NCBI GenBank assembly: GCA_018060845.1 | Contig: JAGOVG010000007.1 | Span: forward strand, 1-44,959 | Origin: Candidatus Woesebacteria bacterium | GTDB taxonomy: Bacteria > Patescibacteriota > Microgenomatia > UBA1400 > UBA12108 | Direction of reading: 5' to 3' | Length of the DNA stretch: 44,959 bases | In this document: positions 5,579 through 17,304 of the stretch, piece by piece | Layout of the letters: each line of letters opens with the position of its first letter | How positions within the stretch are numbered: the stretch's first letter is position 1 | Made by a program: the position numbers and the translations under genes | The notes under the pieces: model-generated | Told to the model about the DNA's origin: nothing | Databases searched by the model: none | The model's input: only the letters and a program-made list of their open reading frames with translations

Positions 5579-6244
5579 TTACCACTTAATCTCTTCTTTG
5601 CCGACTAGACTCAGGTAGTCATCACATTTGCTAAAAGGACGAGATCCAAAGAACCCAGTGTGTGCAGAGAATGGTGATGGATGAGGAGAGTTGATCACTA
5701 GGTGGCGTGTCGAGTCTATAACTTCTCCCTTTTTCTGAGCGTAGGCACCCCAGAGAATAAAGACAAGATTTTCTTTTTGGTCGGACAGAGTTTTGACTAC
5801 TGCATCGGTAAACTGCTCCCACCCCTTCTTTTGGTGAGACCCTGGGGATTTTTCGCTCACGGTGAGAGTCGCATTTAGTAGGAGTACACCCTGGCGGGCC
5901 CACTCCTCCAAGTCCCCGTTGGGGTAAGCGCTTGGGTGGCCCAGATCGCTCTCGATTTCTTTGTAAATATTTTTGACAGATGGAGGGAGTCGGACTCCCT
6001 GGTTTACGGCAAAACAGAGACCATTAGCCTGGCCTGCCCCATGGTACGGATCTTGGCCCAGGATTACCACTTTAACTTTATCAAATGGTGTTAGCTCAAA
6101 CGCACGAAAGATAAACCGAGGTGGTGGGTAAACAGTGCTAGTTGTATATTCTGATCTGACAAAGTCGGTTAGTTCTTTAAAATACGGTTGATCAAACTCG
6201 CCGCTAAGTGCTTTTTTCCAGCTTGGTTCTATTTTTACATCCAT
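5579..6244 (-). CDS. ung: Uracil-DNA glycosylase (family 1)
   Basis: GQDPYHG, GVLLLN, HPSPFS motifs. Confidence 0.97.
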   Translation of the reverse strand: MDVKIEPSWKKALSGEFDQPYFKELTDFVRSEYTTSTVYPPPRFIFRAFELTPFDKVKVVILGQDPYHGAGQANGLCFAVNQGVRLPPSVKNIYKEIESDLGHPSAYPNGDLEEWARQGVLLLNATLTVSEKSPGSHQKKGWEQFTDAVVKTLSDQKENLVFILWGAYAQKKGEVIDSTRHLVINSPHPSPFSAHTGFFGSRPFSKCDDYLSLVGKEEIKW

Positions 6245-6291
6245 AGCTGATATAATATCATCTCATCTTGGCTCACTCACAAAAAAGGCTT

Positions 6292-6312
6292 GCCCTGAGC
6301 TAGCCGAAGGGC
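6292..6312. repeat. Short REP-like palindrome abutting the tRNA 5' end
   Basis: GCCCTGAGCTAGCCGAAGGGC with GCCCT/AGGGC arms; shares CCTGAG...CCGAAGG with the element at 36085-36114. Confidence 0.45.
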
Positions 6313-6384
6313 CCCATCGTCTAGCCAGGTCTAGGACGGCAGGTTCTCATCCTGTTAACATCGGTTCGAATCCGATTGGGGTCA
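6310..6384 (+). tRNA. tRNA-Glu (anticodon CTC); CCA not encoded
   Basis: Folded by hand: acceptor GGCCCCA/TGGGGTC, D stem GTCT/GGAC, anticodon stem GCAGG/CCTGT with loop TTCTCAT, T arm ATCGG-TTCGAAT-CCGAT, discriminator A at 6384. Confidence 0.95.
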
Positions 6385-7855
6385 CATTATCAGATTTTAG
6401 GCCATTAATACCCCGCAATACCTCAAGTACGACAGGGGTTCGATAGTCTAATCCGTCCCAAACCAATTTTTCTGGGAATATCGAACCCTGATAAGCAATT
6501 TTTCCTTCAATGGGTAAACTATCCCACCTATCCTTAATATTTGTGACAAAACTTTTACCAAACTTCGTCAACTCATCAATATTTACTTCTGGTACGGCGA
6601 CCTCTTCGTTTTGTCTTGTTTGCAAAATCATCAATTCTTGCTCATAACCTGTTTTAAGGGTAGTAAAAGTATCTTTATCAATATCATCATCTAATCTCAT
6701 CTCGACTAATCTCTGTTTTTTAGATTCTAATTCCTTAATACGTTTTAATAATTTTTCCTGCTCTGACACACTTGATACAACGTGAGTCGATAATTGTTCC
6801 TTAAAAATCTCGAAATACAAATCAATCGCCTCTTTTTCTGGCTCAATCTTTTCTAGTAAATCGGAGAATTTTGCATGAAGAGTTTTTGACGAATGATTCC
6901 CAGAGTCCCTGTTATGACAGAAGTAATAGCCGTATTTATTACCCCATCTACCCGAAGACATCGCACCAGTAAAAGTATGACCGCAATCGCCAAGTATCAA
7001 ACCTTTAAGAGGAAAGTTTTCATTTGTTGTTTTCCTAATAATGGAAAATTGCTTACCTTGTTTAACCTGCTGACACTTTTCAAAAATATCAGTTGATATC
7101 AAAGGGGTATGTAGACCCTTGCGTAGTTTGTTATCAATTTTGTTACGAGTAAATCCGATGTAGAAAGGGTTTGTAATCAGGGTGACAATTTGTTGTTTAT
7201 AAAATTTAAGTTTTGTACCACGATGATTGTAGGTCGCAGTTTTATTGAGTTTGTGAGCAATCGCATGAAAACTATATAACCCTGTAGCATATAAGTTAAA
7301 TACCTCACGTATAGCATGACTACAGGCTTCATCCTCTTTCGCTACGGACAGTCGTTCACCCATGTTTTTTGGCAGGTAGTAGCCAATAGGGGGATTCCAG
7401 GGGAATAGTCCTTGCTCAAGTCGTCTTATCATGCCTAGTTTAGTCCGTTCAATCCTAATATCGTTGTCATACTCGTTCACGGCGGCGAGGATGCCCTCAA
7501 TCAACTTTGGTGACCCATCTTCACCAATATTTTCAGTAGCCGAGCGGAGGCGGATGTTTTTCTTTAGTAGTTTGCTTCTTAGATAGTGATGGTGTTCCTG
7601 TGACCTCGCAAATCGGTCAATCTTAAATACAACAAGAACGTCAAATTTTTTGTAGTTTTGGTCACAGTAATCGAGTAACTCAGCCACACGTTGAAGATTA
7701 TTTTTATTTGCTGATATAGCCTCATCAGTTACAACATCAACTACATCAAGATTTTGCTTGTTACAATACGCCCTACAAACCTGTTCCTGAGTCGCTAGGG
7801 ATGTATTAGAAACTTGTTTTTCGTCTGATATACGAAGATAGACTACTGCCTTCAT
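6347..7855 (-). CDS. Large serine recombinase (integrase)
   Basis: MKAVVYLRIS with catalytic Ser, KIDRFARS, recombinase domain (PPIGYY), Zn-ribbon-like LKGLILGDCG...YYFC, coiled coil. Probable start ATG 7855; the ORF track extends to 7897. Last codons lie antisense within the tRNA. Confidence 0.93.
   Translation of the reverse strand: MKAVVYLRISDEKQVSNTSLATQEQVCRAYCNKQNLDVVDVVTDEAISANKNNLQRVAELLDYCDQNYKKFDVLVVFKIDRFARSQEHHHYLRSKLLKKNIRLRSATENIGEDGSPKLIEGILAAVNEYDNDIRIERTKLGMIRRLEQGLFPWNPPIGYYLPKNMGERLSVAKEDEACSHAIREVFNLYATGLYSFHAIAHKLNKTATYNHRGTKLKFYKQQIVTLITNPFYIGFTRNKIDNKLRKGLHTPLISTDIFEKCQQVKQGKQFSIIRKTTNENFPLKGLILGDCGHTFTGAMSSGRWGNKYGYYFCHNRDSGNHSSKTLHAKFSDLLEKIEPEKEAIDLYFEIFKEQLSTHVVSSVSEQEKLLKRIKELESKKQRLVEMRLDDDIDKDTFTTLKTGYEQELMILQTRQNEEVAVPEVNIDELTKFGKSFVTNIKDRWDSLPIEGKIAYQGSIFPEKLVWDGLDYRTPVVLEVLRGINGLKSDNVTPIGFEPMLTG
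6375..6386 (+). repeat. att core, left copy (ATTGGGGTCACA)
   Basis: Overlaps the last 10 nt of tRNA-Glu; exact second copy at 11869-11880. Confidence 0.8.
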
Positions 7856-8006
7856 AAATAACCCTAGGCAGGATATTTTTAATAATGGCTTGTTCAACGG
7901 CTATTTTAGCAATATTCTCGAGATTAGCCATCCATAATAGCAAAGCATCATCAGACACTTGAGCATACTTAACACCAAGAATATCGCGAACCCTATCAAT
8001 CGTCAT
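7806..8006 (-). CDS. Small protein coupled between Rep and integrase; candidate recombination directionality factor
   Basis: MTIDRVRDILGVKYAQVSDDALL...; overlaps the Rep stop and the integrase start. Function is inferred from position only. Confidence 0.55.
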   Translation of the reverse strand: MTIDRVRDILGVKYAQVSDDALLLWMANLENIAKIAVEQAIIKNILPRVIYEGSSLSSYIRRKTSF

Positions 8007-8994
8007 GAGCAATCCTATGAATTTTAGGAGGTAAACCAGCAGTTAAGGTAATCTCAATATCATCAGAATCAGGGTTATCAACTTCGTCAAACAAGAATCC
8101 CAAATTCTTCTTCTGTAGTAATAATTTAAGTTTGTCTGGGGATAAATCACTAAAAATGCGTTTACCAACTCTATCTGGCCTAGTACACGACCTACTAACC
8201 GAGTATCTACGTTCAAAATACTTAAATCCGCCAATAGGATTACCTTTATGAGTATCAATCCCATCAACAATATAATTAAGTACGTATCTGCTAATACGGT
8301 TTACACTTTTCACCTTTTCAATGTGGATATCGATACCGCCTCCAATATGCATCCATACCTTCCTGATAATCTCAGCAGGTAAAAATTGATTTAATAGGAT
8401 ATGAAGGTGGGCAATACCAGTACCAGGTTGAAATTGTAGAACCCAGATATATTTTAGGATGTTTACTTGTTTCTTTAACTCAAATTTATAAAATCGTTTC
8501 TTCTTGGTGCTGTAATAGGTAAACTTATTACGCTTAAGGGTTACAACCAGGTGATTAAACTTTTTGGTTATGTACTCATGCGTTTTGTTTACCCCGTTAC
8601 CAAAATACTCAAGGGGAATCGTTTTGGGGTCAAGAGTTAAGACCAAGTGATACCAAATATCATTAAGTAAAGCAATATTAAGTAATAGATACTTGAGTCG
8701 CAGGGCCTTTTTAATCTGACACCTGGGACAAGTCCAGGAATTACACCCAATCCTTTTGACGTTAATCTGTGCGAGTCTTTTACCCTCATAAACCATGAAA
8801 GCAATTTTTCTAGACTCGCAAAATCGCGGAGGGATAAGTCTAGTCTTAAATTTACGCCCATATAGTTTGGTTTTGATTTGACGAATCCATTCCTTCTGGG
8901 AGTCAGTCTGTTGAGATGATCTATTATTAGTCAAGACTAGTACCTGCCGCTTCGCGTCAGGTAAGGGGGCACATGGGGATTCCGTCTTTTTCAT
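7996..8994 (-). CDS. HUH-superfamily rolling-circle replication initiator (Rep)
   Basis: Cys cluster CNSWTCPRC, motif I HLVLTLDP, motif II QFQPGTGIAHLHILL, motif III-like SRYVLNY. Confidence 0.8.
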   Translation of the reverse strand: MKKTESPCAPLPDAKRQVLVLTNNRSSQQTDSQKEWIRQIKTKLYGRKFKTRLIPPRFCESRKIAFMVYEGKRLAQINVKRIGCNSWTCPRCQIKKALRLKYLLLNIALLNDIWYHLVLTLDPKTIPLEYFGNGVNKTHEYITKKFNHLVVTLKRNKFTYYSTKKKRFYKFELKKQVNILKYIWVLQFQPGTGIAHLHILLNQFLPAEIIRKVWMHIGGGIDIHIEKVKSVNRISRYVLNYIVDGIDTHKGNPIGGFKYFERRYSVSRSCTRPDRVGKRIFSDLSPDKLKLLLQKKNLGFLFDEVDNPDSDDIEITLTAGLPPKIHRIAHDD

Positions 8995-9056
8995 GACGGA
9001 ATCCTAAAAGAAAAGGCTCAGAAAATATAACCAGATAACCTAGGAGTAAATGATAT

Positions 9057-9815
9057 TTACTTAAAACGCTTTGAGTATTTTGCTATACGTTCCTTGTAGT
9101 GTAGTATCTTATTGCTCACCCAGGCATAATCACCAATATACTTATGGCTTGGGTATTTGTCTGACAATTTAACTGATATTTGCTTGGCAGATAATCCATG
9201 CTGGTACATCTGAAACACCTCATCAATGAGTTTAATGTCCTTTAATTTATCTTTAAGGATTGGGGATTGAAGTAAATAGCGACTATTCCATTTTTCAATC
9301 TCGTCCCAATTCATATTTACCCATTCAATAAACTCAGTTTTAGAAACAATGTGTGAAAAAGTAATACCAGTAAGTTTTTGATGGTTTTCTTGAGTATATT
9401 GCATATACTCACCAATCTCTGCGTTATCAGGGAAGTACCTTATATCTGGGAATTTACTTATATCTATTACTGGAAAAATGTCATAGCGGATAAGCATCAT
9501 TATTGAATCCGCAAGACCATCCCACAAGTCATAGTCCATAAGTAACCCTATGACAAAATCACGGTCAGAAGCAAAAAATTGATGAATATCTTGGTTAATA
9601 TCTGCTACAACCCAACTTTTAGTCTCACCATAATACACACTTTCCTCGCGCATACCGGCTATAAACTTCTGAAAATTGGGGGAATTTAACAGGGCTGTAA
9701 CAAGAGATACTGTTTCTTTGTTGGGTTTGAATGCTTTCTTGTAAATAAACTTAATATCAGGGGGTATGCCATCGATTAAAGGTTTTACAAAAGTAATATC
9801 AGTAAGTTTAATCAT
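9057..9815 (-). CDS. Hypothetical protein with a possible C-terminal helix-turn-helix
   Basis: Long open frame; C-terminal LSAKQISVKLSDKYP...YAWVSNKILHYK looks HTH-like. Start ATG 9815 or 9845. Confidence 0.6.
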   Translation of the reverse strand: MIKLTDITFVKPLIDGIPPDIKFIYKKAFKPNKETVSLVTALLNSPNFQKFIAGMREESVYYGETKSWVVADINQDIHQFFASDRDFVIGLLMDYDLWDGLADSIMMLIRYDIFPVIDISKFPDIRYFPDNAEIGEYMQYTQENHQKLTGITFSHIVSKTEFIEWVNMNWDEIEKWNSRYLLQSPILKDKLKDIKLIDEVFQMYQHGLSAKQISVKLSDKYPSHKYIGDYAWVSNKILHYKERIAKYSKRFK

Positions 9816-9869
9816 AAGGGAATCCCAAGCCTGTCTTGCAACCAAACCGCTGTACCAAGCAAAAGAGGC

Positions 9870-9937
9870 TTTTTTAACATCTGCGGGGATTTTACCACGG
9901 CAGAGCCGTGGTAGCAGGGGGAGCAGATGTTAAAAAA
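9870..9937. repeat. Two-tier inverted repeat (15-bp outer arms, 9-bp inner arms)
   Basis: TTTTTTAACATCTGC (9870-9884) / GCAGATGTTAAAAAA (9923-9937) enclosing TACCACGGC-AGA-GCCGTGGTA (9893-9913). Confidence 0.9.
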
Positions 9938-9972
9938 ACAATGTATGTCCGAACCTCAGTAATTTAAGTAAA

Positions 9973-10857
9973 TTACTTTTTGATAGACAAATATTTTTCC
10001 TTAAAAGTATTTAATGAATTTTGCATTGTATTTTCAAAAAAATTACGCAATATATAAAAAACCCAATCAGGGACTAAAGGCCCTTTTCTATAAATATAAA
10101 TACTATCTTGTATGTTTCTCAACTCATCAATCTGTAAATTGTGGTCATTAACCAAGACAGATTCGGAAAGTTTACTAATTTTTGTTTCTAATCCCGCACG
10201 ATTGATAGAGTCTGAGTTGAAATCTCTAGCTTCTTGTATGCCCATGACATAACTCGGTATACAAGGTAAAACTAATACAAGTATAAAATCATATACAGTT
10301 AAGCCAAATTTAATACCAATTATGATTGTTGAAAGAAAAAATATTAATATAATTAATGACAATAATAATGAGAATATTCTTTTAAGTCTCCAATCCCAAG
10401 CAAGATTACTACGTTGGCAAAGCAAAACATCTAGAGGATACGGAAATCCTGATACATCACCGTACCAGTCCTTTAGAAGTTCCATATCTCCTTCAAATTT
10501 TTTACTACCATAAATAATGCTTTCTTCAGAGGGTTTTTCCCCGGCTAGAGCATAATTCCACGACATGCGGAATAGTCCCGTATCAATTTCTTCCTGTATA
10601 TTCACAGCCAAATTAACTATTTTTTTCTCAATATTCTGCAATATAAAAGATGCTATTACCCACAAAGAGCTCATAACGCCTGCTGTTATCTTAGTAGAAG
10701 GATACAAAATTACTAATAGAGGGGTAAATATTGCAAAAAATATTGATATTAATAACCTAGAATTATGTAGTTTTTTCCCCACACTATAGAAATATCTTTG
10801 TGAGGCCAGTCTATCAATATTTTCTCTTTGATTTTGATTTACAGAAATATAAGACAT
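9973..10857 (-). CDS. S-4TM (SMODS-associated 4-TM) putative CBASS effector
   Basis: Two TM pairs; QEEIDTGLF, KDWY, LLCQRSNLAWD and VPDWVFYILR motifs recalled for the S_4TM family. Start 10857 is 1 nt after the CD-NTase stop; the ORF track starts at 10890. Confidence 0.8.
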   Translation of the reverse strand: MSYISVNQNQRENIDRLASQRYFYSVGKKLHNSRLLISIFFAIFTPLLVILYPSTKITAGVMSSLWVIASFILQNIEKKIVNLAVNIQEEIDTGLFRMSWNYALAGEKPSEESIIYGSKKFEGDMELLKDWYGDVSGFPYPLDVLLCQRSNLAWDWRLKRIFSLLLSLIILIFFLSTIIIGIKFGLTVYDFILVLVLPCIPSYVMGIQEARDFNSDSINRAGLETKISKLSESVLVNDHNLQIDELRNIQDSIYIYRKGPLVPDWVFYILRNFFENTMQNSLNTFKEKYLSIKK

Positions 10858-10858
10858 A

Positions 10859-11731
10859 TTAGTAATAATATGATGGAAATTTTTCTGCAAAAATCAAATT
10901 CCACCAATAAAATGAATCAGATATATTGTTAGCGTTTTCGCACGACTTTGCATTTACCGCTCTTGTATACGCGGTATTAAGCTTAGAAAGAGTTTCTGTT
11001 TTAGCGTTTTCAGTTTTTAACCCATCAATGTATCCACCTACTCCAACAGGGTCAATTATTTTTGCTAAATTAATATCAATTAAATACTTAAAAACATCTC
11101 TAATATCAATAGAATATATGATAGAGTCTTGGGTGGAAATGTACTTAGCGGTGCGCATTTCTAAATAAAAGGAAGAAATAGGAACATTATTGTAAAATTT
11201 CCATGCTTTAATAAATCTGATTAGAGGTTTTACTTTAAAACCGAGTGACTCATTCAGTTGAGTTACGTACTTATTGTTAGCCATTGGGCTAGACTTCATC
11301 CAAGACCCATATGTATCAGGAATATCATAAATATTAACTCCATTCTCAGTTTTCATATAATCAGATGGAATAATTTCAGTAGTTTCAGATGCCTTACTGC
11401 CAAAATCAACAACCACTGCTGGACTATCTACATAGATATTAGAGCTAGGAAATCTAGTTTGTAATGCTTCTTTAACTTTTCTTAATGAGGTAATAGAATT
11501 ATCAGATAAATTTTCCCTTGGTATTACAGAAAAATAATCTGTATCACTATAGCCATTTACATTAGTCCCATTACCTATAGAGCCTGTTCTAAAGAAATTA
11601 GTCATGCCAAAATTATTCTCTAAACAAGCTTTAATAGAGGCTCTATGACTTTTGACTGCTTCAGACTCACTATTTACAATTTTTAACTTTTCGTGGAAAT
11701 CTCGAAAACCTTCATCAATAGTCCGTGGCAT
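10859..11731 (-). CDS. cGAS/DncV-like nucleotidyltransferase (CD-NTase, SMODS domain)
   Basis: GS-x11-DTD (GSIGNGTNVNGYSDTD), third acidic residue in TEIIP, KPLIRFIKAWK...PISSFYLE helical lobe. Confidence 0.88.
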   Translation of the reverse strand: MPRTIDEGFRDFHEKLKIVNSESEAVKSHRASIKACLENNFGMTNFFRTGSIGNGTNVNGYSDTDYFSVIPRENLSDNSITSLRKVKEALQTRFPSSNIYVDSPAVVVDFGSKASETTEIIPSDYMKTENGVNIYDIPDTYGSWMKSSPMANNKYVTQLNESLGFKVKPLIRFIKAWKFYNNVPISSFYLEMRTAKYISTQDSIIYSIDIRDVFKYLIDINLAKIIDPVGVGGYIDGLKTENAKTETLSKLNTAYTRAVNAKSCENANNISDSFYWWNLIFAEKFPSYYY

Positions 11732-11868
11732 AAGTTTAATAATTTGTATTCTGTAAGAACTCTATTATATTACAACTGTAAATAGATGTAGCACTTCACA
11801 TATTAAATCCTCTCGAAATCGATAAAATCTCTCTAAAGAGAAGGAAAATATGGTTCACGTTTTGTATA

Positions 11869-11880
11869 ATTGGGGTCACA
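11869..11880 (+). repeat. att core, right copy (ATTGGGGTCACA)
   Basis: Exact match to 6375-6386; lies just upstream of the CD-NTase gene. Confidence 0.8.
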
Positions 11881-12007
11881 CATCTCAGATGTCTAGAACT
11901 AACCTGTTAGGATTAGAAGAATATATCGTCGATGTCAAACATTTCACCGCCACTATTTTGAAAATTTACTTCCATTACCCTTACTAGCCGTATAATCTCA
12001 CTAAATT

Positions 12008-12744
12008 ATGGAGAAAGTCGGCATTAAACAATATCGAGGATTACCGTGTGCATGGTGTGGTGAAAAATATCACGACCGCGCTCATGTACCTACTAAGTTT
12101 TTAATTCCAAAAGACGAACGGAATAACCCTAAGTGGCCAATATTACCTTCATGTCGGAAGTGTAATGAAGGGCTAAAGCTAGATGAAGAATGGTTAACTG
12201 TTCATTTTTGTTCTCTACTCTATGACTATTCTAAAGTTGCCAAGAAAATGTTTGACGGACCTGTGACTAAACATTTTCAGAAACACAGGTCAATTGCGAG
12301 TAGATATAACAAATACTTAAGCTTAGTGGAGCTTAAAGTTAATGACATTTCATTAGGCTTAAAAACTAGAATTGATATGAGCCAGGAAGATTGGAATCGA
12401 CTTGAACGTGTTGCAGAAATGTTTGCCAGAGGACTTTACTACTGGCATAATCTGCAAACAGCACAAAAACTAAAGGCCAAGGTAGTCTACCTTACACCAA
12501 AGAGATTTAAAGACTTTAGTCACCATATTAAGTCACTAAAAGTATATCCGATATTCCCTATTACTTTTGAATATGCATATGGCTATGTGTCTACAACTGA
12601 AAAGCAGCTTTTGTAATTATGATTTATGGAAAACCTGCTTTTCAGGTACTACTTATAGCAGGTAATAAATACGACAAAATGGAGTCAAAAGTAAAACTAG
12701 GTGAAGTTGTGCGAACAAGTGAGCCAAGTATAGAAATATACTAG
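12008..12744 (+). pseudogene. HNH endonuclease-like gene interrupted by a -1 frameshift near 12601-12604
   Basis: CAWCG...RAHVP...PSCRKCN. Frame 0 stops at 12616, but the -1 frame continues AAFVIMIYGKPAFQVLLIAG...SIEIY* to 12744. Confidence 0.6.
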
Positions 12745-12838
12745 CAGAGGACTTATAGCTCTTATCAATAACTAAGCTTAATCTCCTTAATACCCTATAA
12801 CTGTATAGTAAAGACTTATTTTGCTATAATTCCTGTTC

Positions 12839-13582
12839 ATGAAGCGCGTATTCGAATCTAGGAAAAGTAATACATTTAGTCTCAGTGTAGGGGTTGGAGA
12901 TCGCGATATCAGCACCTGGGAGGAAGAAGCATCAAGTCTTGATTATATTATCGCTAATCAAACTTTCCCCAAGGCTACTACCAAGGTCTTATTAGGTAAA
13001 AATGCCAACCCAGGAAATATTAAAAACACTGTTGAAAGCTTTGCAGGACGAGCTAGCGTGATTGATACAATGTTCTTCTTCTTCAGTGGTCATGGGCTAC
13101 CGGACAGTATTAATCTAGCGAGAGGTAAAAGCACTTTAGATTATCCAAAGGATAATCTTTTTCATGACCTCTCACTTTTTCCTGGAAGAAGAATTGTAAT
13201 ACTGTCTTCTTGCCACGGTGGTTTTCAGAGTATTTCCCCGAACACCTTGCTAGTCACACCTTCACAACAAGAAACCCATGCTTTTGGAAGGAGATTTTTT
13301 GTGGATGTTCTACATGAGTTCATCGACGCGAGCCATGCACCCCACGCACTTACATACTTGATAAACAGTTTCTTAACTAACTATCATAACCGTCCTTACG
13401 GACCACTGAATGACCGAGTTTGGGAACAAGATCCCCACCATCCAGATTTAGATATTTATAAGGTTGAAAAGGAAACTGGCCAAATATTGCTAATGAACTA
13501 CCAAAGAGCTTTTGTATTATCAAGCATCTTAGGGGATGGGACGATTTTACGTGTCGATCCAAAATGCTATTTTCCTCGCTAA
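12839..13582 (+). CDS. Caspase-like (peptidase C14/clan CD) protein
   Basis: FFFFSGHG (His) and IVILSSCHGG (Cys) in caspase/metacaspase order; extended -10 TGcTATAAT 8 nt before the ATG. Confidence 0.65.
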   Translation: MKRVFESRKSNTFSLSVGVGDRDISTWEEEASSLDYIIANQTFPKATTKVLLGKNANPGNIKNTVESFAGRASVIDTMFFFFSGHGLPDSINLARGKSTLDYPKDNLFHDLSLFPGRRIVILSSCHGGFQSISPNTLLVTPSQQETHAFGRRFFVDVLHEFIDASHAPHALTYLINSFLTNYHNRPYGPLNDRVWEQDPHHPDLDIYKVEKETGQILLMNYQRAFVLSSILGDGTILRVDPKCYFPR

Positions 13583-13774
13583 TCAATAGTGTTATTCCCG
13601 TACTACAGATAAGTACATCCCCCATGTCAAATCTGCGAACTCATATTTACTTCCGAAGAGGATACTGTTTAATCTACTAAATACATGTCATAAGAGAATA
13701 GACAAAACAAACCAATTAGATGTGAGATAATCTGTTTTGGTAGTAGTAAAAATCGCTCTCACAATAATAGTTTT

Positions 13775-14113
13775 ATGAAATATCAAATCAAAAGTATCTC
13801 CAAAATCCCACTAGAGGGAACGCACGATTTACCTAACTCTAGGCAGACGCTAGCTACTACCAGTGATGTTATAACCAATAATCTTGATGCACTGACTAAA
13901 GGGATTCTGGCAGCAGGCAAAGTATGGGACTGGCATAGCCACGAAGAGTATGACGAATTATGCATAGTCATAAAGGGTACTGGTAAATTTTATTGGGAGG
14001 ATGAGGTGCGCGAATATAAGAACAATGATGTAATCATCATCCCAGCAAAAGGTAAACATAAAATCGAGGCAACAGAAGATAGTGAATTTTACTTTGTCAG
14101 AATTAAAGTCTAA
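13775..14113 (+). CDS. Cupin-domain protein
   Basis: WHSHEEYDELCIVIKG and PAKGKH motifs. Confidence 0.9.
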   Translation: MKYQIKSISKIPLEGTHDLPNSRQTLATTSDVITNNLDALTKGILAAGKVWDWHSHEEYDELCIVIKGTGKFYWEDEVREYKNNDVIIIPAKGKHKIEATEDSEFYFVRIKV

Positions 14114-14128
14114 ATTTAAGTACACTAT

Positions 14129-14989
14129 ATGAATTGGATTGTCGCAAGCATACTCATGCTCGTTAGCTCTGTTGGGTTGTATTTGTTTGTGCGAAAAAGT
14201 AATACGCTTAAGACCCCACAGCAGTTAAACAACCTAGCCATGTTTTTGGTACCGGTCGTAGTCTATCTGATAATGACTGTGGGTACTCCCACTGATTTTG
14301 TACTAGAACCTTTTGAATATTTGTTGATAATCATCCAAGCGATATTCTTTAGTTATCTTGGCAACGTATTTTCACTAAAAGGTATCGAATACGCTCCCAA
14401 CCCTGGGTACAGCTTAACTATCTCTCGAAGCTATGTTGTCTTTACTGCTATTGCGTCTATCTATCTTTTTGACTCTCCACTTACAACTAAGTCAGTCATC
14501 GCAATTGTTTGTATTATTATATTTGCAGCTTTGATAGCAATCGATAAGGACAGAGATAAACTAGGATCTAATGCAGCATGGCTCCCCTATACAATTGGGG
14601 CGTTTTTTTGTGCTGGGTTCTCGGCGCTATCTTCTAAATACCTACTTAACGTAGGTGTGCCGATACTCACTAGGCTCCTCTACTCAATGTTATTAGTCAC
14701 TATACTGATCGTTGGCGAAATAGTAGTTAAGAAAGTAAATTTAAAAAATACTTCTAAACCTCAACTCTTAACTCTACTCATGATAGGTATTTTTGGAGCG
14801 AGCTTTAACTACTTTATGCAGGTAGCTTTTGACCTAGCACCAAATGTGGGCTATGTTAACGCCACAAACGCTGCCTCTATATCACTGCTAACTATTATGT
14901 CGTATTTAGTTTTTAAGGATGAGTTGAGTATAAAGAAAATGATTGGGATTGTCGGAGTAACTACTGGCTTGATACTACTATTTGTCTGA
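14129..14989 (+). CDS. EamA/DMT-family transporter
   Basis: About 10 TM helices in two repeats; C-terminal FKDELSIKKMIGIVGVTTGLILL. Confidence 0.85.
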   Translation: MNWIVASILMLVSSVGLYLFVRKSNTLKTPQQLNNLAMFLVPVVVYLIMTVGTPTDFVLEPFEYLLIIIQAIFFSYLGNVFSLKGIEYAPNPGYSLTISRSYVVFTAIASIYLFDSPLTTKSVIAIVCIIIFAALIAIDKDRDKLGSNAAWLPYTIGAFFCAGFSALSSKYLLNVGVPILTRLLYSMLLVTILIVGEIVVKKVNLKNTSKPQLLTLLMIGIFGASFNYFMQVAFDLAPNVGYVNATNAASISLLTIMSYLVFKDELSIKKMIGIVGVTTGLILLFV

Positions 14990-15038
14990 TTACTCTTGAA
15001 GTAGGTATGAATACACTATATAGCAGTAAGTCTACAAA

Positions 15039-15656
15039 TTAGTTATCTTTGACTTTAGCAACTACCTGAATCCATTTGTCATCGATAACTCTGGATATCA
15101 ACATAGTATATCCAGATTTATACATGATTTGTGTGAGTAAACCTTCATCATAATATTGGAAATCACGCTCAAATCCCCTGCCTCTTGCTTCTCTCTGAGT
15201 ACCCTCTCCTTTGAGCACACTAAGAAAAACTATTTTACTGCCAGTTAGATGTTGTTTTGCTCTTGCTAGAAAGTTTGTTGTCTCATCTGGTCCAAAGTGG
15301 ACAAATACAGCGTTAGCATAAATAGCATCGAAGTTACCAGGTAATTCTTCGCTCTTTGCATCGAAAATAGTGGCATCTAGCCCTTTATCCTTGCATCTTG
15401 AGACAAACCCAGGGACAAAATCACTTGCTTTTACGATGTATCCTGCACTTTGCAGAGCCAAAGCATCCTCACCTGCTCCAGAGCCAATCTCGAAAATACT
15501 GGAACCAAAAGGAATATACTTAGTGAGAAGCGCAAGCCTGTCTAACATCGAACCTCCTCCAACTTCTTTTGTTTGTTTGGCTTCGACATATTCAGCGATG
15601 TGTTCGGTGTACTGTCTAAGATTAAAACGATCGTCTATGCTCATATTTCTCTCCAT
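15039..15656 (-). CDS. Class I SAM-dependent methyltransferase
   Basis: FEIGSGAG motif I, FDAIYANAVFVH motif IV. Confidence 0.9.
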   Translation of the reverse strand: MERNMSIDDRFNLRQYTEHIAEYVEAKQTKEVGGGSMLDRLALLTKYIPFGSSIFEIGSGAGEDALALQSAGYIVKASDFVPGFVSRCKDKGLDATIFDAKSEELPGNFDAIYANAVFVHFGPDETTNFLARAKQHLTGSKIVFLSVLKGEGTQREARGRGFERDFQYYDEGLLTQIMYKSGYTMLISRVIDDKWIQVVAKVKDN

Positions 15657-15729
15657 CCAAACATGTTGATTAATAAGAATTATACATTCAGATCATATTA
15701 TTGTGTCTAAGCTATTTGTCTGACTGTAA

Positions 15730-16806
15730 TGAATAAGTCCCGATACATATTGGAATCCTAAAGAAAGGATTCTAATCATGAAAACTGGTGTATCCATGCG
15801 CCTGCGCTCTGGCGCTCTTGTTCCCTTGAGGTACACTTCCCTGATGAAAACATGGGAAAATGCACTGTCGTTCGACCGATCCGACATCGCCAAATATCGG
15901 CTACATGTACTTAAGTTTTGGGAGACTCATGGCAGATTGGCTACCGAGTCTGCTTTTGGAGTTAAAACAAGCACTCTTTATCTGTGGCGAGCGAAGCTCG
16001 CCACCACTCAAGGGAAACTAATCTCTTTAATACCCAAGAGTACCCGCCCCAAGACTACTCGCCGAATGGAGATGGATGAGAGACTAGTAGAGTTTATTCG
16101 CTCTATTAGGGAAGAGTATGGAAATGTTGGCAAGGAAGCGATTAAAACACTTCTTGTTGCCTACGCCAACTCGTTAGGACTCTCTGGGTATGGCGCCACT
16201 AAGATCGGCCGAATTATTAAACGCAATCATTACTTCTTTGAAGGAAAAAAGGTTGTAAAGAGACGTCTTGCCAGAGCTAATCGAGTAAAACGTAGTCCTA
16301 AACCGAACGCTCCTGGCTATATCGAAGTTGATTGCATCACAGTCTATGTGGAGGGACAGAAGAAGTACTTTGTAACTGGAATTGATGTCTATACTAAGCT
16401 CGCAGGCGCTCACCTCGTATCCCACCTAAACTCACGCAACACGAGAGACTTCTTAATATCCTGGCAAGAGAGCCTCCCTTACAAGATCCATACCGTTCAA
16501 ACTGATAATGGAAGTGAGTTTTTAGCCGACTTTCATAAGTATTTAGAGAGTGTGGGGATAACTCACGCCTTTATCTACCCCCACTCTCCCAAGATTAACG
16601 GCTATATAGAGCGTTTTAACTGGACAATTCAAAACCACTACGTTAACAGATGCACCCCACTCTGGAGTGGCCAGACCGAGCTCGCTAGACACAAACTAGA
16701 GAGATTTCTTCACTGGTATAATGAGGTACGACCCCATCAATCTCTAGGTTCATTAACACCTGCTGAGTTTACAAGCCAATATTCCAATATGTATGCGACC
16801 TGAACA
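15730..16806 (+). mobile_element. IS481-like insertion sequence with flanking target duplication
   Basis: 14-bp perfect IR core ATACATATTGGAAT (15743-15756) / ATTCCAATATGTAT (16781-16794); TG...CA ends; direct repeat TGTAA(T) at 15725 and 16807. Confidence 0.8.
15778..16803 (+). CDS. DDE (integrase-core) transposase, IS481-like
   Basis: N-terminal HTH, IEVD, QTDNGSEF, NGYIERFN (DDE triad), YNEVRPHQSLGSLTP. Confidence 0.92.
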   Translation: MKTGVSMRLRSGALVPLRYTSLMKTWENALSFDRSDIAKYRLHVLKFWETHGRLATESAFGVKTSTLYLWRAKLATTQGKLISLIPKSTRPKTTRRMEMDERLVEFIRSIREEYGNVGKEAIKTLLVAYANSLGLSGYGATKIGRIIKRNHYFFEGKKVVKRRLARANRVKRSPKPNAPGYIEVDCITVYVEGQKKYFVTGIDVYTKLAGAHLVSHLNSRNTRDFLISWQESLPYKIHTVQTDNGSEFLADFHKYLESVGITHAFIYPHSPKINGYIERFNWTIQNHYVNRCTPLWSGQTELARHKLERFLHWYNEVRPHQSLGSLTPAEFTSQYSNMYAT

Positions 16807-16884
16807 TGTAATTGATCCTATAGCTGTTTGTGAGATAATATCTCTCGATTAGTTGTGAATAAATATTAATCCTAAATACAATTT

Positions 16885-17274
16885 ATGAATTACGAACACT
16901 TAGTAGTGGGTAAGTTTTTTGTCCCTACTGGATACGAAAGTAAAAAATTACTAGTAGCTGAGATGGATCTAGAAGTTGCTGCATACAGATCAACTAAAGG
17001 CAGAAGTAATTTTTTTACACTTGAGCCTTTGTGTCCATTTGAAACTTGTACCCGTAAAATTGAAACAGGTGACTCGTTTAGAGGATACTTAGTATCAGCA
17101 GAACAATCTGTCTCAACTCTTGTAACACATTTGAGACATTTTCACCCTCCGCTTAACACATCTACACTAACCACGCTGGAAAGTGAGATGGCATGGAATG
17201 CTGCAGGAAAGTACTATAAACTGATAGTAGTAGGAATGAACGAACTCCTAGAGCATGCTCTCGCCGAAAAGTGA
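16885..17274 (+). CDS. Hypothetical protein with CPFETC...HLRHFH (possible Zn finger)
   Basis: 129-aa ORF filling the gap between the IS and glgA; Cys/His pairs. Confidence 0.55.
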   Translation: MNYEHLVVGKFFVPTGYESKKLLVAEMDLEVAAYRSTKGRSNFFTLEPLCPFETCTRKIETGDSFRGYLVSAEQSVSTLVTHLRHFHPPLNTSTLTTLESEMAWNAAGKYYKLIVVGMNELLEHALAEK

Positions 17275-17304
17275 GCTCGCTCAACACTAGAGTACAATAG
17301 GTAC

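What the first reader, a model, noticed from the sequence alone, without database searches (positions are those of the whole stretch)
6347..6386. Integration rewrites the integrase C-terminus; excision would couple integrase to CBASS
Seen: the att core lies inside the integrase ORF. Integrated, the protein ends ...NVTPIGFEPMLTG*, encoded antisense to the tRNA, with the TGA opposite the anticodon loop. Joining the ends by hand gives ...NVTPIIQNVNHIFLLFREILSISRGFNM* (TGA at 11796-11798), ending about 65 nt upstream of the CD-NTase ATG on the same strand. Inference: the circular and integrated forms make different integrase isoforms, a possible directionality or stability switch. On the circle, rep-integrase transcription could read straight into CBASS and raise defence expression in the excised state.
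Basis: partly seen in the sequence, partly recalled or inferred. Interest (0 to 1): 0.65.

Follow-up and report, generated by a model that had tools for sequence, protein, structure and literature searches.

The report
Serine integrase gene spans own attP
A 5.5-kb mobile element carrying a CBASS anti-phage system sits at the end of a tRNA-Glu gene, and its serine integrase gene runs across its own recombination site, so the enzyme's last residues differ between the inserted and circular forms; this layout is shared by a whole clade of integrases, but in this element the swapped tails look like by-products, not a switch.

Summary
The large serine recombinase (LSR) ORF 6347-7855(-) overlaps tRNA-Glu(CTC) 6310-6385(+). 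An exact 12-bp repeat (6375-6386, 11869-11880) brackets a 5.5-kb, low-GC element carrying Rep, LSR and CBASS. Joining the ends gives the predicted 23-residue alternative tail, which stops 64 nt before the CD-NTase ATG.

The layout is clade-wide. Of 56 homologous LSR loci, 43 run antisense into a tRNA. Conserved protein sequence stops at the crossover valine.

For this element the tails look incidental:
- AlphaFold gives pLDDT below 50 from residue 489.
- tRNA-derived tails in relatives vary from 6 to 64 codons and use three frames.
- Three P arms of this element's type agree for only 30 nt (about 10 codons), then diverge.
- No database protein carries this tail.

The conserved 30 nt holds a T-loop-like GAACC placed 5 bp further out than in the tRNA arm, as in the standard serine-integrase attP/attB model. 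A conserved 66-aa ORF is a conventional candidate directionality factor.

One caveat: a sister subclade keeps an attP-only RTYF motif through purely synonymous changes, so a functional tail is plausible there.

Read-through into CBASS is geometrically possible, with no terminator found, but it is untested. No attP or attB junction was found in public data.

The parts
6310..6385 (+). tRNA-Glu(CTC), the integration target. Its 3' half forms the B arm of attL.
   Evidence: ARAGORN. Conserved at 84-97% in family relatives.
6375..6386 (.). attL core, the left copy of the exact 12-bp repeat ATTGGGGTCACA. The likely crossover is near TCAC at 6382-6385, the tRNA discriminator end.
   Evidence: In relatives, sequence shared between attP-form and attL-form loci ends at GTGA.
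6347..7855 (-). Large serine recombinase, 502 aa from MKAVVY. Residues 495-502 (GFEPMLTG) are encoded antisense to the tRNA.
   Evidence: Pfam Resolvase 2e-25, Recombinase 6e-13 and Zn_ribbon_recom 2e-5. Translation. AlphaFold mean pLDDT is 83, with residues 489-502 below 50.
6387..6416 (-). P' arm of attP/attL, lying inside the last 10 or so island-encoded codons of the integrase.
   Evidence: Position relative to the core. Inferred from the 25-30 bp half-site size of LSR att sites (PMC3783163).
6363..6367 (+). GGTTC of the tRNA T-arm/T-loop. It reads GAACC on the integrase strand and starts 15 nt after GTGA. Proposed zinc-ribbon-domain motif of the B arm.
   Evidence: The role is inferred.
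7806..8006 (-). Conserved 66-aa ORF overlapping the Rep stop and the integrase start. Candidate recombination directionality factor or regulator.
   Evidence: 62-67% identical to the 66-aa ORFs at the same position in L005 and L006. No informative family hit.
7996..8994 (-). Rolling-circle-type replication initiator (Rep).
   Evidence: Pfam REP_ORF2-G2P 5e-6. phrog_3419, rolling circle DNA replication initiation, 2e-11. 54% identical to the L006 Rep.
9057..9845 (-). 262-aa backbone protein of unknown function, conserved in related elements.
   Evidence: 34-42% identical to the 251-aa and 253-aa ORFs of L006 and L005. No Pfam, PHROG or PADLOC hit.
9973..10857 (-). CBASS effector of the S-4TM type.
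   Evidence: Pfam S_4TM 2e-67. PADLOC 4TM effector 1.5e-62.
10859..11731 (-). CBASS CD-NTase (oligonucleotide cyclase).
   Evidence: Pfam SMODS 3e-13. PADLOC cyclase PDLC00776 1e-111 over its full length.
11764..11769 (-). Perfect TATAAT on the cargo strand, 32 nt upstream of the CD-NTase ATG and downstream of the circle-form integrase stop. Candidate -10 box of the cargo's own promoter.
   Evidence: Consensus match only; no matching -35 box was flagged.
11796..11868 (-). Sequence that would encode the circle-specific tail IQNVNHIFLLFREILSISRGFNM*, with TGA at 11798-11796.
   Evidence: Join and translation. No database protein shares this tail.
11851..11868 (-). Conserved part of the P arm. 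Together with the core it forms the 30-nt block TGTGACCCCAATTATACAAAACGTGAACCA. It contains GAACC (GGTTC at 11852-11856 on +), which starts 20 nt after GTGA, 5 bp further out than in the B arm.
   Evidence: 93% identical over 30 nt to sites in G116 and G105, with no similarity beyond.
11869..11880 (.). attR core, the right copy of the 12-bp repeat.
11881..11905 (.). B' arm, the original tRNA trailer (CATCTCAGATG...).
   Evidence: The tRNA-Glu of G022 is followed by CATCTCTGTCGG. Weak support.

Best explanation
Positions 6347-6386 are the integrase-proximal junction (attL) of a 5.5-kb integrative element (6387-11880). The element carries a rolling-circle Rep, a large serine recombinase and a type I CBASS. 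It sits at the extreme 3' end of tRNA-Glu(CTC) in a small-genome, probably CPR, bacterium.

In this clade of serine integrases the crossover point, at the tRNA discriminator end, coincides with the end of the conserved coding sequence at Val491. The gene has no stop codon of its own before the crossover. Translation therefore ends wherever the adjoining DNA provides a stop: 11 codons later in the antisense tRNA when integrated, or 26 codons later in the P arm and cargo leader when circular.

In this element both tails are most likely incidental read-out of the att arms and not a regulatory device. What is conserved on the attP side is the 30-bp P half-site as DNA. It carries a T-loop-like GAACC motif placed 5 bp further from the crossover than the real T-loop in the tRNA arm. 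That is the attP/attB geometry expected if the integrase's zinc-ribbon domain reads the T-loop sequence.

Directionality is probably set, as in other serine integrases, by a small accessory protein; the conserved 66-aa ORF at 7806-8006 is the candidate.

Shown: the anatomy, the two predicted products, the clade-wide layout and the conservation patterns. Inferred: crossover position, zinc-ribbon-domain motif reading, tail dispensability and the RDF role.
For: Anatomy and join.

Foreign origin: island GC is 35.0% against 45.2% in the left flank. The same-genus genome G002 is syntenic up to the tRNA and lacks the island.

Clade-wide layout: 43 of 56 homologous LSR loci that include the 3' end run antisense into a tRNA (Glu 19, Leu 6, Lys 5, Arg 3 and others). 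Tails run 5.7-64 codons and use three frames.

Protein conservation ends at V491.

The L094 attP-form sequence recurs as the attR P arm of the integrated L095, which validates how I read attP forms.

P arms of this element's type in G116 and G105 match 28 of 30 nt and then diverge completely. In-frame tails are 26, 23 and about 37 residues counted from the valine. No protein in the 5.8-billion-sequence collection shares this tail.

AlphaFold: the last helix is 478-485 and residues 489-502 are below pLDDT 50. The attP-form relative P0003 is likewise below 50 from residue 490.

GAACC starts at +15 in the B arm and +20 in the P arm. This matches the 5-bp ZD-motif shift described for LI/A118 integrase (PMC3783163).

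The 66-aa ORF is conserved at 62-67%.
Against: A sister subclade (L094, L095, L100, L130, L102 and the L115 remnant) keeps R-T-Y-F in the attP-only tail. It uses four Arg codons, three Thr codons and two Phe codons, with no non-synonymous change. That points to selection on the peptide, so tails are not always junk in this family.

This window's P arm read in the +2 frame gives YTKREPYFPSL*, collinear with the L094 tail YNEVRTYFQAL*. The tail here could therefore be a frameshifted, decayed version of a once-functional one.

The two comparison P arms come from sites with no adjacent integrase found (none in the 16.5 kb fetched for G105; only a 24%-identical LSR about 16 kb away in G116), so their distal parts may have decayed.

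Low pLDDT does not prove dispensability, and P0003's tail is modelled as a weak helix.

The P' arm shows little mirror symmetry with the P arm.

There are no experimental or read-level data on excision.
Confidence: 0.6

Rival explanations
1. Isoform switch. The circle-encoded integrase, with its own tail, and the integrated-state integrase, with a tRNA-coded tail, differ in activity, stability or directionality, so integration state feeds back on the enzyme as in phage Mx8.
For: The layout is conserved across a large clade, and no member places a stop before the crossover. An attP-only RTYF motif is kept by synonymous changes alone in at least five lineages. Mx8 is a precedent: its attP lies inside int, and integration makes a new 3' end that alters integrase properties (PMC6070905). 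A further precedent is mycobacteriophage integration-dependent immunity (PMC4557955, listed; mechanism recalled from my own knowledge). P0003's tail is modelled as a short helix.
Against: This element's tail lacks RTYF and is out of register with it. It is not conserved beyond the P half-site among the three P arms of its type. No database protein carries it. Integrated tails vary widely in length and frame. Both tails are low-confidence and lie outside the fold. A conventional RDF candidate exists.
Confidence: 0.2
2. Transcriptional coupling. On the excised circle, Rep-integrase transcripts read across attP into the CBASS operon and raise its expression, whereas the integrated copy relies on a weaker promoter of its own.
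For: All six genes are co-oriented. Only 64 nt separate the circle-form stop from the CD-NTase ATG. No terminator-like site is present on the minus strand in 6200-12100. The 191-nt junction RNA is less structured than shuffled controls, z = +1.36. The same co-oriented layout, with an 85-nt gap to the first cargo ORF, is seen in L095. The neighbouring host gene at 12008 is divergent, so the integrated operon gets no host read-through.
Against: There are no transcript data. A perfect TATAAT lies between the integrase stop and the CD-NTase ATG, which suggests an autonomous cargo promoter. In attP-form relatives L100 and L130, a GC-rich hairpin follows the integrase stop directly. Terminator rules for CPR bacteria are unknown. 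Excision itself is undemonstrated.
Confidence: 0.15
3. Fixed, decaying island. The element no longer excises, and the odd 23-residue circle tail is the result of a small indel in an untranslated P arm, so the circle isoform is never made.
For: Only the integrated form is seen in four runs. The +2 frame of the P arm is collinear with the conserved tail of relatives, including the stop position. LSR-less remnants of the same element type exist in G105, and a decayed attL-like fragment exists in G014.
Against: All six ORFs are intact, and the LSR keeps its near-invariant residues. Both core copies are identical, and the 30-nt P half-site matches relatives. Logan contigs drop rare variants, so absence of junctions is weak evidence. 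A contig in run X1 ends exactly at 6386, as a graph branch at the crossover would produce.
Confidence: 0.1

Closest known systems
Phage-type large serine integrases (Listeria A118/LI, phiC31, Bxb1, SPbeta)
   Same: Same domain set: Resolvase, Recombinase and zinc ribbon with a long coiled-coil insert. Short att sites. A distal arm motif sits about 5 bp further out in attP than in attB, as described for LI integrase. A small adjacent ORF could be the RDF.
   Different: The target is the 3' end of a tRNA gene. The 2014 Islander paper states that serine integrases were not known to target tRNA genes (PMC4383910), and I found no later report in the held library. The gene spans attP, so its C-terminus depends on integration state. 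The host element is a 5.5-kb rolling-circle Rep element, not a phage.
Myxococcus phage Mx8 integrase (IntP/IntX)
   Same: attP lies inside the int coding sequence. Integration creates a gene with a new 3' end and an altered C-terminus (PMC6070905). From my own knowledge, the Mx8 attB sites are in tRNA-Asp genes.
   Different: Mx8 Int is a tyrosine recombinase, and a large C-terminal segment is exchanged, with a demonstrated functional effect. Here the enzyme is a serine recombinase, only a short segment predicted to be disordered is exchanged, and no functional effect is shown.
SSV-type 'suicidal' integrases of archaeal viruses and plasmids
   Same: The recombination site lies within the integrase ORF, so integration changes the gene (PMC7253208 abstract; PMC4383910).
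   Different: SSV integrases are tyrosine recombinases split into two non-functional parts. Here the whole conserved protein stays intact on one side of the crossover.
Integration-dependent immunity of mycobacteriophage BPs and relatives
   Same: An attP inside a coding region changes a protein's C-terminus on integration and so changes its behaviour (PMC4557955, listed; the mechanism is recalled from my own knowledge of the BPs system).
   Different: There the affected gene is the repressor, and the lost tail is a degradation tag. No such tag is evident here.
Type I CBASS (CD-NTase plus 4TM effector) on mobile defence islands
   Same: A full-length cyclase and an S-4TM effector lie in tandem. 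Sister elements carry other defence cargo in the same slot.
   Different: Nothing unusual in the CBASS genes themselves. The unusual part is the carrier and the position of the operon directly behind attP.

Membership tests
Large serine recombinase / serine integrase | N-terminal resolvase-type catalytic domain with the serine nucleophile | tested here: met
   Pfam Resolvase 2e-25 over residues 17-163. Y6, R8 and S10 in YLRISD are invariant or nearly so across 40 homologues.
Large serine recombinase / serine integrase | Recombinase domain plus zinc-ribbon domain with an inserted coiled coil | tested here: met
   Pfam Recombinase 6e-13. Zn_ribbon_recom 1.7e-5, 25.6 bits against a cut-off of 25.3. 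The AlphaFold model has beta strands at 294-322 followed by long helices at 341-388 and 394-419.
Large serine recombinase / serine integrase | Short attP and attB sites with a central crossover and a ZD motif shifted about 5 bp between attB and attP | tested here: inconclusive
   GAACC starts at +15 in the B arm and +20 in the P arm here, and the shift is +4 or +5 in relatives. This is consistent with PMC3783163, but it rests on short motifs, and P'/P symmetry is weak.
Large serine recombinase / serine integrase | Catalyses attP x attB integration; excision needs an RDF | not testable with these tools
   Only a conserved 66-aa candidate ORF was identified. No junction reads were found.
Mx8-like 'attP inside int' architecture | The crossover lies within the integrase ORF, so attL and attP forms encode different C-termini | tested here: met
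   Clade-wide in 43 of 56 loci. The attP form was verified by the L094/L095 pair.
Mx8-like 'attP inside int' architecture | The two forms differ in recombination properties | not testable with these tools
   Indirect evidence here argues against it for this element and for it in the RTYF subclade.
Mx8-like 'attP inside int' architecture | Tyrosine recombinase chemistry | tested here: not met
   The enzyme is a serine recombinase. It works like Mx8 in layout but is not a member of that family.
tRNA-inserted genomic island | An intact tRNA at one end, a displaced tRNA 3' fragment at the other, and an integrase inside | tested here: met
   tRNA at 6310-6385, a 12-bp 3' fragment at 11869-11880, and the LSR inside. 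Low GC. Absent from syntenic G002.
tRNA-inserted genomic island | The empty site or circular form is observed | tested here: not met
   No attB or attP junction appears in Logan contigs of four runs or in the metagenome and viral collections. In G002 the region after the tRNA also differs, so it is not a clean empty site.
Type I CBASS | A CD-NTase plus a single effector, with no Cap2/Cap3 or HORMA/TRIP13 genes | tested here: met
   PADLOC cyclase 1e-111 and 4TM effector 1.5e-62. The other island ORFs are Rep, LSR, the 66-aa ORF and the 262-aa unknown.

The most novel reading that the evidence does not exclude
This element belongs to a large, apparently undescribed clade of serine integrases in ultra-small (CPR) bacteria. 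Members target the 3' tip of many different tRNA genes by reading the universal T-loop sequence with their zinc-ribbon domain. Their gene spans attP, so only the free circular form makes the complete enzyme. The attP-only C-terminal peptide (RTYF in the sister subclade) would act as a built-in sensor of integration state that tunes activity or directionality, a serine-recombinase counterpart of Mx8 IntP/IntX.
Probability: 0.2. Interest if true: 0.75.

Novelty: new variant of a known kind. Interest (0 to 1): 0.5.

Why it matters
Serine integrases are major genome-engineering tools, and how they choose direction is an active structural question. Three features of this clade could matter.
- It targets tRNA genes, a target class long held to be used only by tyrosine integrases.
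- It may recognise the near-universal T-loop sequence, which would suggest portable attB sites in almost any genome.
- Its coding sequence is rewritten by its own reaction, giving a natural test of whether a serine integrase's C-terminal extension matters.

For this window the practical message is more modest. The tail swap is real but probably incidental, and the proposed link to CBASS expression is an untested possibility.

The element is also one of a family of small Rep-plus-integrase carriers that move different defence systems among CPR bacteria, whose mobile elements are poorly known.

Tried and rejected
1. Direct evidence of excision. I laid Logan contigs of runs X1-X4, X21, X22 and X5 on the island and on both junctions. 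Only the integrated form appeared, with no joints or loose ends at either core. Raw reads were not available, and contigs drop rare variants, so this is weak negative evidence.

2. Exact attB and attP junction strings in metagenome contigs and viral contigs: none found.

3. A clean empty site in relatives. The right flank has no DNA match in 60 relatives. G002 is syntenic up to the tRNA, but a different 2-kb segment follows.

4. Finding attR in other integrated loci by direct repeats of 10 bp or more. This mostly failed, as expected if the shared core is only about 4 bp. It succeeded only through P-arm homology (L095, L102).

5. Circularity of attP-form contigs. There are no terminal overlaps, and L100 and L101 merge into a 7.2-kb linear piece.

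6. The IMG/VR search for relatives gave only distant N-terminal hits.

7. P-arm motif search in L141 and L142: nothing found.

8. TGA recoding (code 4 or 25) was considered and rejected, because TGA ends 10 of 45 long ORFs.

9. I first attributed the RTYF conservation wholly to a DNA-level T-loop mimic. The purely synonymous codon pattern, including AGA against CGN, made me keep a peptide-level constraint for that subclade.

10. The primary Mx8 papers (PMC93897, PMC178153) are not held, so I relied on a review.
Full report
**1. What is in the sequence**

ARAGORN finds one tRNA in the window, tRNA-Glu(CTC) at 6310-6385 on the + strand. On the minus strand an ORF runs from 7897 (TTG), or from 7855 (the conserved MKAVVY start), down to 6347. 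It overlaps the tRNA by 39 nt. Its TGA stop is the complement of 6347-6349 and overlaps the anticodon at 6346-6348.

Pfam identifies the protein as a large serine recombinase (LSR): Resolvase 2e-25, Recombinase 6e-13, Zn_ribbon_recom 2e-5.

The 12-mer ATTGGGGTCACA, which is the tRNA 3' end, occurs exactly twice in the window, at 6375-6386 and 11869-11880. By my arithmetic a chance second copy has an expectation of about 0.005.

Six co-oriented minus-strand genes lie between the two copies:
- CD-NTase, 10859-11731 (PADLOC cyclase 1e-111)
- S-4TM effector, 9973-10857 (1.5e-62)
- a 262-aa unknown protein
- a rolling-circle-type Rep, 7996-8994 (phrog_3419, 2e-11)
- a 66-aa ORF, 7806-8006
- the LSR

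The island has 35.0% GC against 45.2% in the left flank. The genome is 0.98 Mb and 96% complete. The nearest named LSR homologue comes from Candidatus Shapirobacteria, so the host is probably a CPR bacterium. TGA is a normal stop here, ending 10 of 45 long ORFs.

**2. The two predicted products**

The integrated ORF ends ...NVTPIGFEPMLTG*. Joining 11868 to the core and on into the integrase gives ...NVTPIIQNVNHIFLLFREILSISRGFNM*. The stop is TGA at 11798-11796, and 64 nt separate it from the CD-NTase ATG at 11731.

**3. The layout is a property of a whole clade**

The closest database homologues (38-85% identity) nearly all end in peptides such as VTPxG[IFV]EP. That is the translation of the antisense of a tRNA acceptor stem and T-loop.

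I collected homologous loci from 286 genomes of the same order and from metagenome contigs. Of the 56 loci that contain the LSR 3' end, 43 (40 non-redundant) run antisense into a tRNA gene. The targets are Glu 19, Leu 6, Lys 5, Arg 3, Ala 2, Gly 2, and Met, Ile and Pro 1 each.

The stretch from the tRNA 3' end to the stop varies from 5.7 to 64 codons. The tRNA is entered in three different frames (27, 9 and 4 loci). The tRNA-coded tails are therefore not selected as peptides.

Protein conservation runs up to a near-invariant valine (V491) and stops there.

**4. attP forms and the crossover**

Some homologues have non-tRNA tails:
- L094/L005/L097: ...NNV|RCYNEVRTYFQAL*
- L100/L101: ...TNV|NVFEKIRTYFKQR*
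- L130: ...SVV|NVFEKIRTYFKSMC*
- L113: ...SLV|SSLSHRWNPYSTVL*

They are attP forms. The 28 nt that follow GTGA in L094 recur in L095, an integrated relative at a tRNA-Glu. There they sit 8.2 kb upstream of the tRNA and directly after a GTGA, which is where attR should be.

In these relatives, sequence shared between attP-form and attL-form loci ends at GTGA. GTGA is the complement of the tRNA's positions 71-74, so the crossover lies at the discriminator end of the tRNA. In this window the shared stretch happens to be longer (12 bp), because the P arm begins with CCCCAAT like the tRNA.

**5. Is the attP-side tail conserved?**

There are two answers.

(a) In the subclade with RTYF, five lineages keep R-T-Y-F. 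They use Arg codons AGA, CGA, CGC and CGG, Thr codons ACA, ACC and ACT, and Phe codons TTC and TTT. There are no non-synonymous differences in those four codons, while the neighbouring codons vary freely. That pattern argues for selection on the peptide.

(b) This window belongs to another P-arm class. A search of the order with the P-arm DNA found two sites, in G116 and G105, that match TGTGACCCCAATTATACAAAACGTGAACCA at 28 of 30 nt. Beyond that point they share nothing with the window or with each other.

Read in the integrase frame, the three tails agree only in the first 10 or so residues (VTP[IS]IQN[VL]N). They then run on for 26, 23 and about 37 residues in total. The G105 site lies 0.9 kb downstream of a tRNA-Glu(TTC) with no integrase in the 16.5 kb fetched, so it is a remnant; the G116 site has no tRNA nearby and only a distant (24% identical) LSR about 16 kb away.

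A search of 5.8 billion proteins using the circle-form tail found only the window's own protein and its integrated 85% relative, matching only the part before the core.

The window's in-frame tail lacks RTYF. The +2 frame of the same DNA reads YTKREPYFPSL*, collinear with the L094 tail YNEVRTYFQAL* down to the stop. So the window's integrase frame is out of register with what may be the ancestral tail frame.

**6. Structure**

AlphaFold2 with a 40-sequence alignment gives a confident model, mean pLDDT 83. Its last helix is 478-485, and residues 489-502 are below pLDDT 50. The attP-form relative P0003 is likewise below 50 from residue 490, although its tail is drawn as a weak helix at 494-503. 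The exchange therefore affects a segment outside the predicted fold.

**7. What the conserved P arm may be**

On the integrase strand, the tRNA arm reads GTGA followed by 14 nt and then GAACC, the antisense of the T-loop region. The P arm reads GTGA followed by 19 nt and then GAACC (GGTTC at 6363-6367 and 11852-11856). In relatives the corresponding motif (TCGGACC, TCGAACA, GGAACC) is displaced outward by 4-5 bp.

For LI/A118 integrase, the zinc-ribbon-domain motif sits 5 bp nearer the centre in attB than in attP (PMC3783163). I infer that these integrases read the T-loop sequence with the zinc-ribbon domain. That would explain how one clade uses at least nine tRNA species. The inference rests on short motifs, and the P' arm shows little symmetry with P.

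**8. Directionality and coupling**

The 66-aa ORF wedged between Rep and the LSR is 62-67% identical to ORFs at the same place in two sister elements. It is a conventional RDF candidate, though no family match supports a function.

For read-through into CBASS:
- No terminator-like site exists on the minus strand of 6200-12100.
- The 191-nt junction RNA folds no better than shuffled controls, z = +1.36.
- A perfect TATAAT at 11769-11764 lies between the circle-form stop and the CD-NTase ATG.
- In attP-form relatives L100 and L130, GC-rich hairpins follow the integrase stop.
- The neighbouring host gene at 12008 is divergent, so the integrated operon needs its own promoter.

Coupling is geometrically possible but untested.

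**9. Is the element mobile now?**

Logan contigs of four wastewater runs carry the integrated form across both junctions, with no alternative joints. In run X1 a contig ends exactly at 6386, which hints at a branch in the assembly graph at the crossover, but nothing more can be said. Exact attB and attP strings are absent from the metagenome and viral collections.

The same-genus genome G002 is syntenic up to the tRNA and lacks the island. However, the next 2 kb also differ, and window 11881-14112 (37.5% GC) looks like an older accessory tier.

**10. Comparison with what is known**

An attP inside the integrase gene, giving a changed C-terminus on integration, is established for Mx8. It is noted for SSV-type integrases as well. 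Both are tyrosine recombinases (PMC6070905; PMC4383910; PMC7253208).

The 2014 Islander paper states that serine integrases were not known to target tRNA genes. My searches of the held library found no later description of tRNA-targeting LSRs or of an LSR spanning its attP. This is not an exhaustive search.

Earlier notes of this scan report the same layout in many other genomes. They agree with what I found independently, but they are unchecked AI notes and not evidence.

**11. Verdict**

The state-dependent C-terminus is real and clade-wide. In this element, however, both tails look like incidental read-out of the att arms, and the CBASS-coupling idea remains a possibility without support.

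I rate it a new variant of a known kind: Mx8-like layout with serine-integrase chemistry and a tRNA target.

Noticed in passing
L005 (1-8498), L006 (1-10862), L095: Sister elements share the same backbone (a protein of about 250 aa, Rep, the 66-aa ORF and the LSR) but carry different defence cargo in the slot behind attP. L005 has an EcoRI-type methylase plus GmrSD. L006 has a HinfI restriction-modification system plus an OLD/AAA_15 protein. Together they form a family of mini defence-island carriers in CPR bacteria.
   Followed up: partly
L154 (G105:C4) 14036-15011: A tRNA-Glu(TTC) is followed 0.9 kb later by a 28/30-nt copy of this window's core plus P arm, and then by a terminator-like hairpin. 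No integrase lies between them, so this is a decayed remnant of the same element type.
   Followed up: partly
L033 / L022 (G014:C20 3363-3386 and 5488-5563): A 24-nt stretch identical to this window's tRNA-Glu 3' end lies 2.1 kb from G014's own tRNA-Glu, which is only 84% identical. It is preceded by sequence reading ...FVTPIGFEP. This looks like a relic attL with an integrase 3' stub.
   Followed up: no
L115 7440-7620 versus L133: In L115 the LSR ORF reads through a whole tRNA-Leu(GAG) and then into a P-arm-like tail, ...TRTYFQNK*. In L133 the same integrase is followed by tRNA-Leu(GAG) and then tRNA-Leu(CAG). The element may carry its own tRNA-Leu between the integrase and attP.
   Followed up: no
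window 6386 (run X1): A 6,289-nt Logan contig ends exactly at the last base of the att core, and the next contig starts at 6428. Runs X2 and X3 cross the junction without a break. This could reflect a graph branch from empty-site reads or from other organisms' tRNA-Glu genes.
   Followed up: partly
window 11881-14112 and 14990-17283: Both segments are absent from the syntenic same-genus genome G002. The first has 37.5% GC and encodes a caspase-like protein (Pfam Peptidase_C14 1.4e-3, PADLOC caspase 7.5e-5) and two unknowns. It is probably an older accessory tier at the same tRNA hotspot. No third att copy was found, even allowing up to 2 mismatches.
   Followed up: partly
tRNA-Glu loci of relatives (L011, L017, L018, L019, L025, L028, L031): In many family genomes the contig ends within a few dozen bases of the tRNA-Glu gene. 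That is what island polymorphism or multi-copy elements at this site would do to assemblies.
   Followed up: no
L006 1154-2737: A second, different large serine recombinase (527 aa) lies just beyond the presumed far end of the L006 island, suggesting tandem elements at the same tRNA-Glu.
   Followed up: no
L004 / G052:C1: The public record is titled 'uncultured Pseudomonadales bacterium'. Its 314,981-bp contig has the same length as contig C1 of a 1.2-Mb genome that the genome tool places in the same order as this window's host. The record title is probably a mislabel.
   Followed up: no
window 9870-9937: A long, interrupted palindrome, with outer arms TTTTTTAACATCTGC...GCAGATGTTAAAAAA and an inner CCACGGC...GCCGTGG, lies between the CBASS effector and the 262-aa gene. 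I only confirmed that the sequence is there.
   Followed up: no
run X22 (soil metagenome) on window 11356-11666: Two low-depth contigs about 97% identical to the CD-NTase gene occur in an unrelated 2024 soil sample, so the cargo, or the whole element, is not confined to the wastewater study.
   Followed up: no
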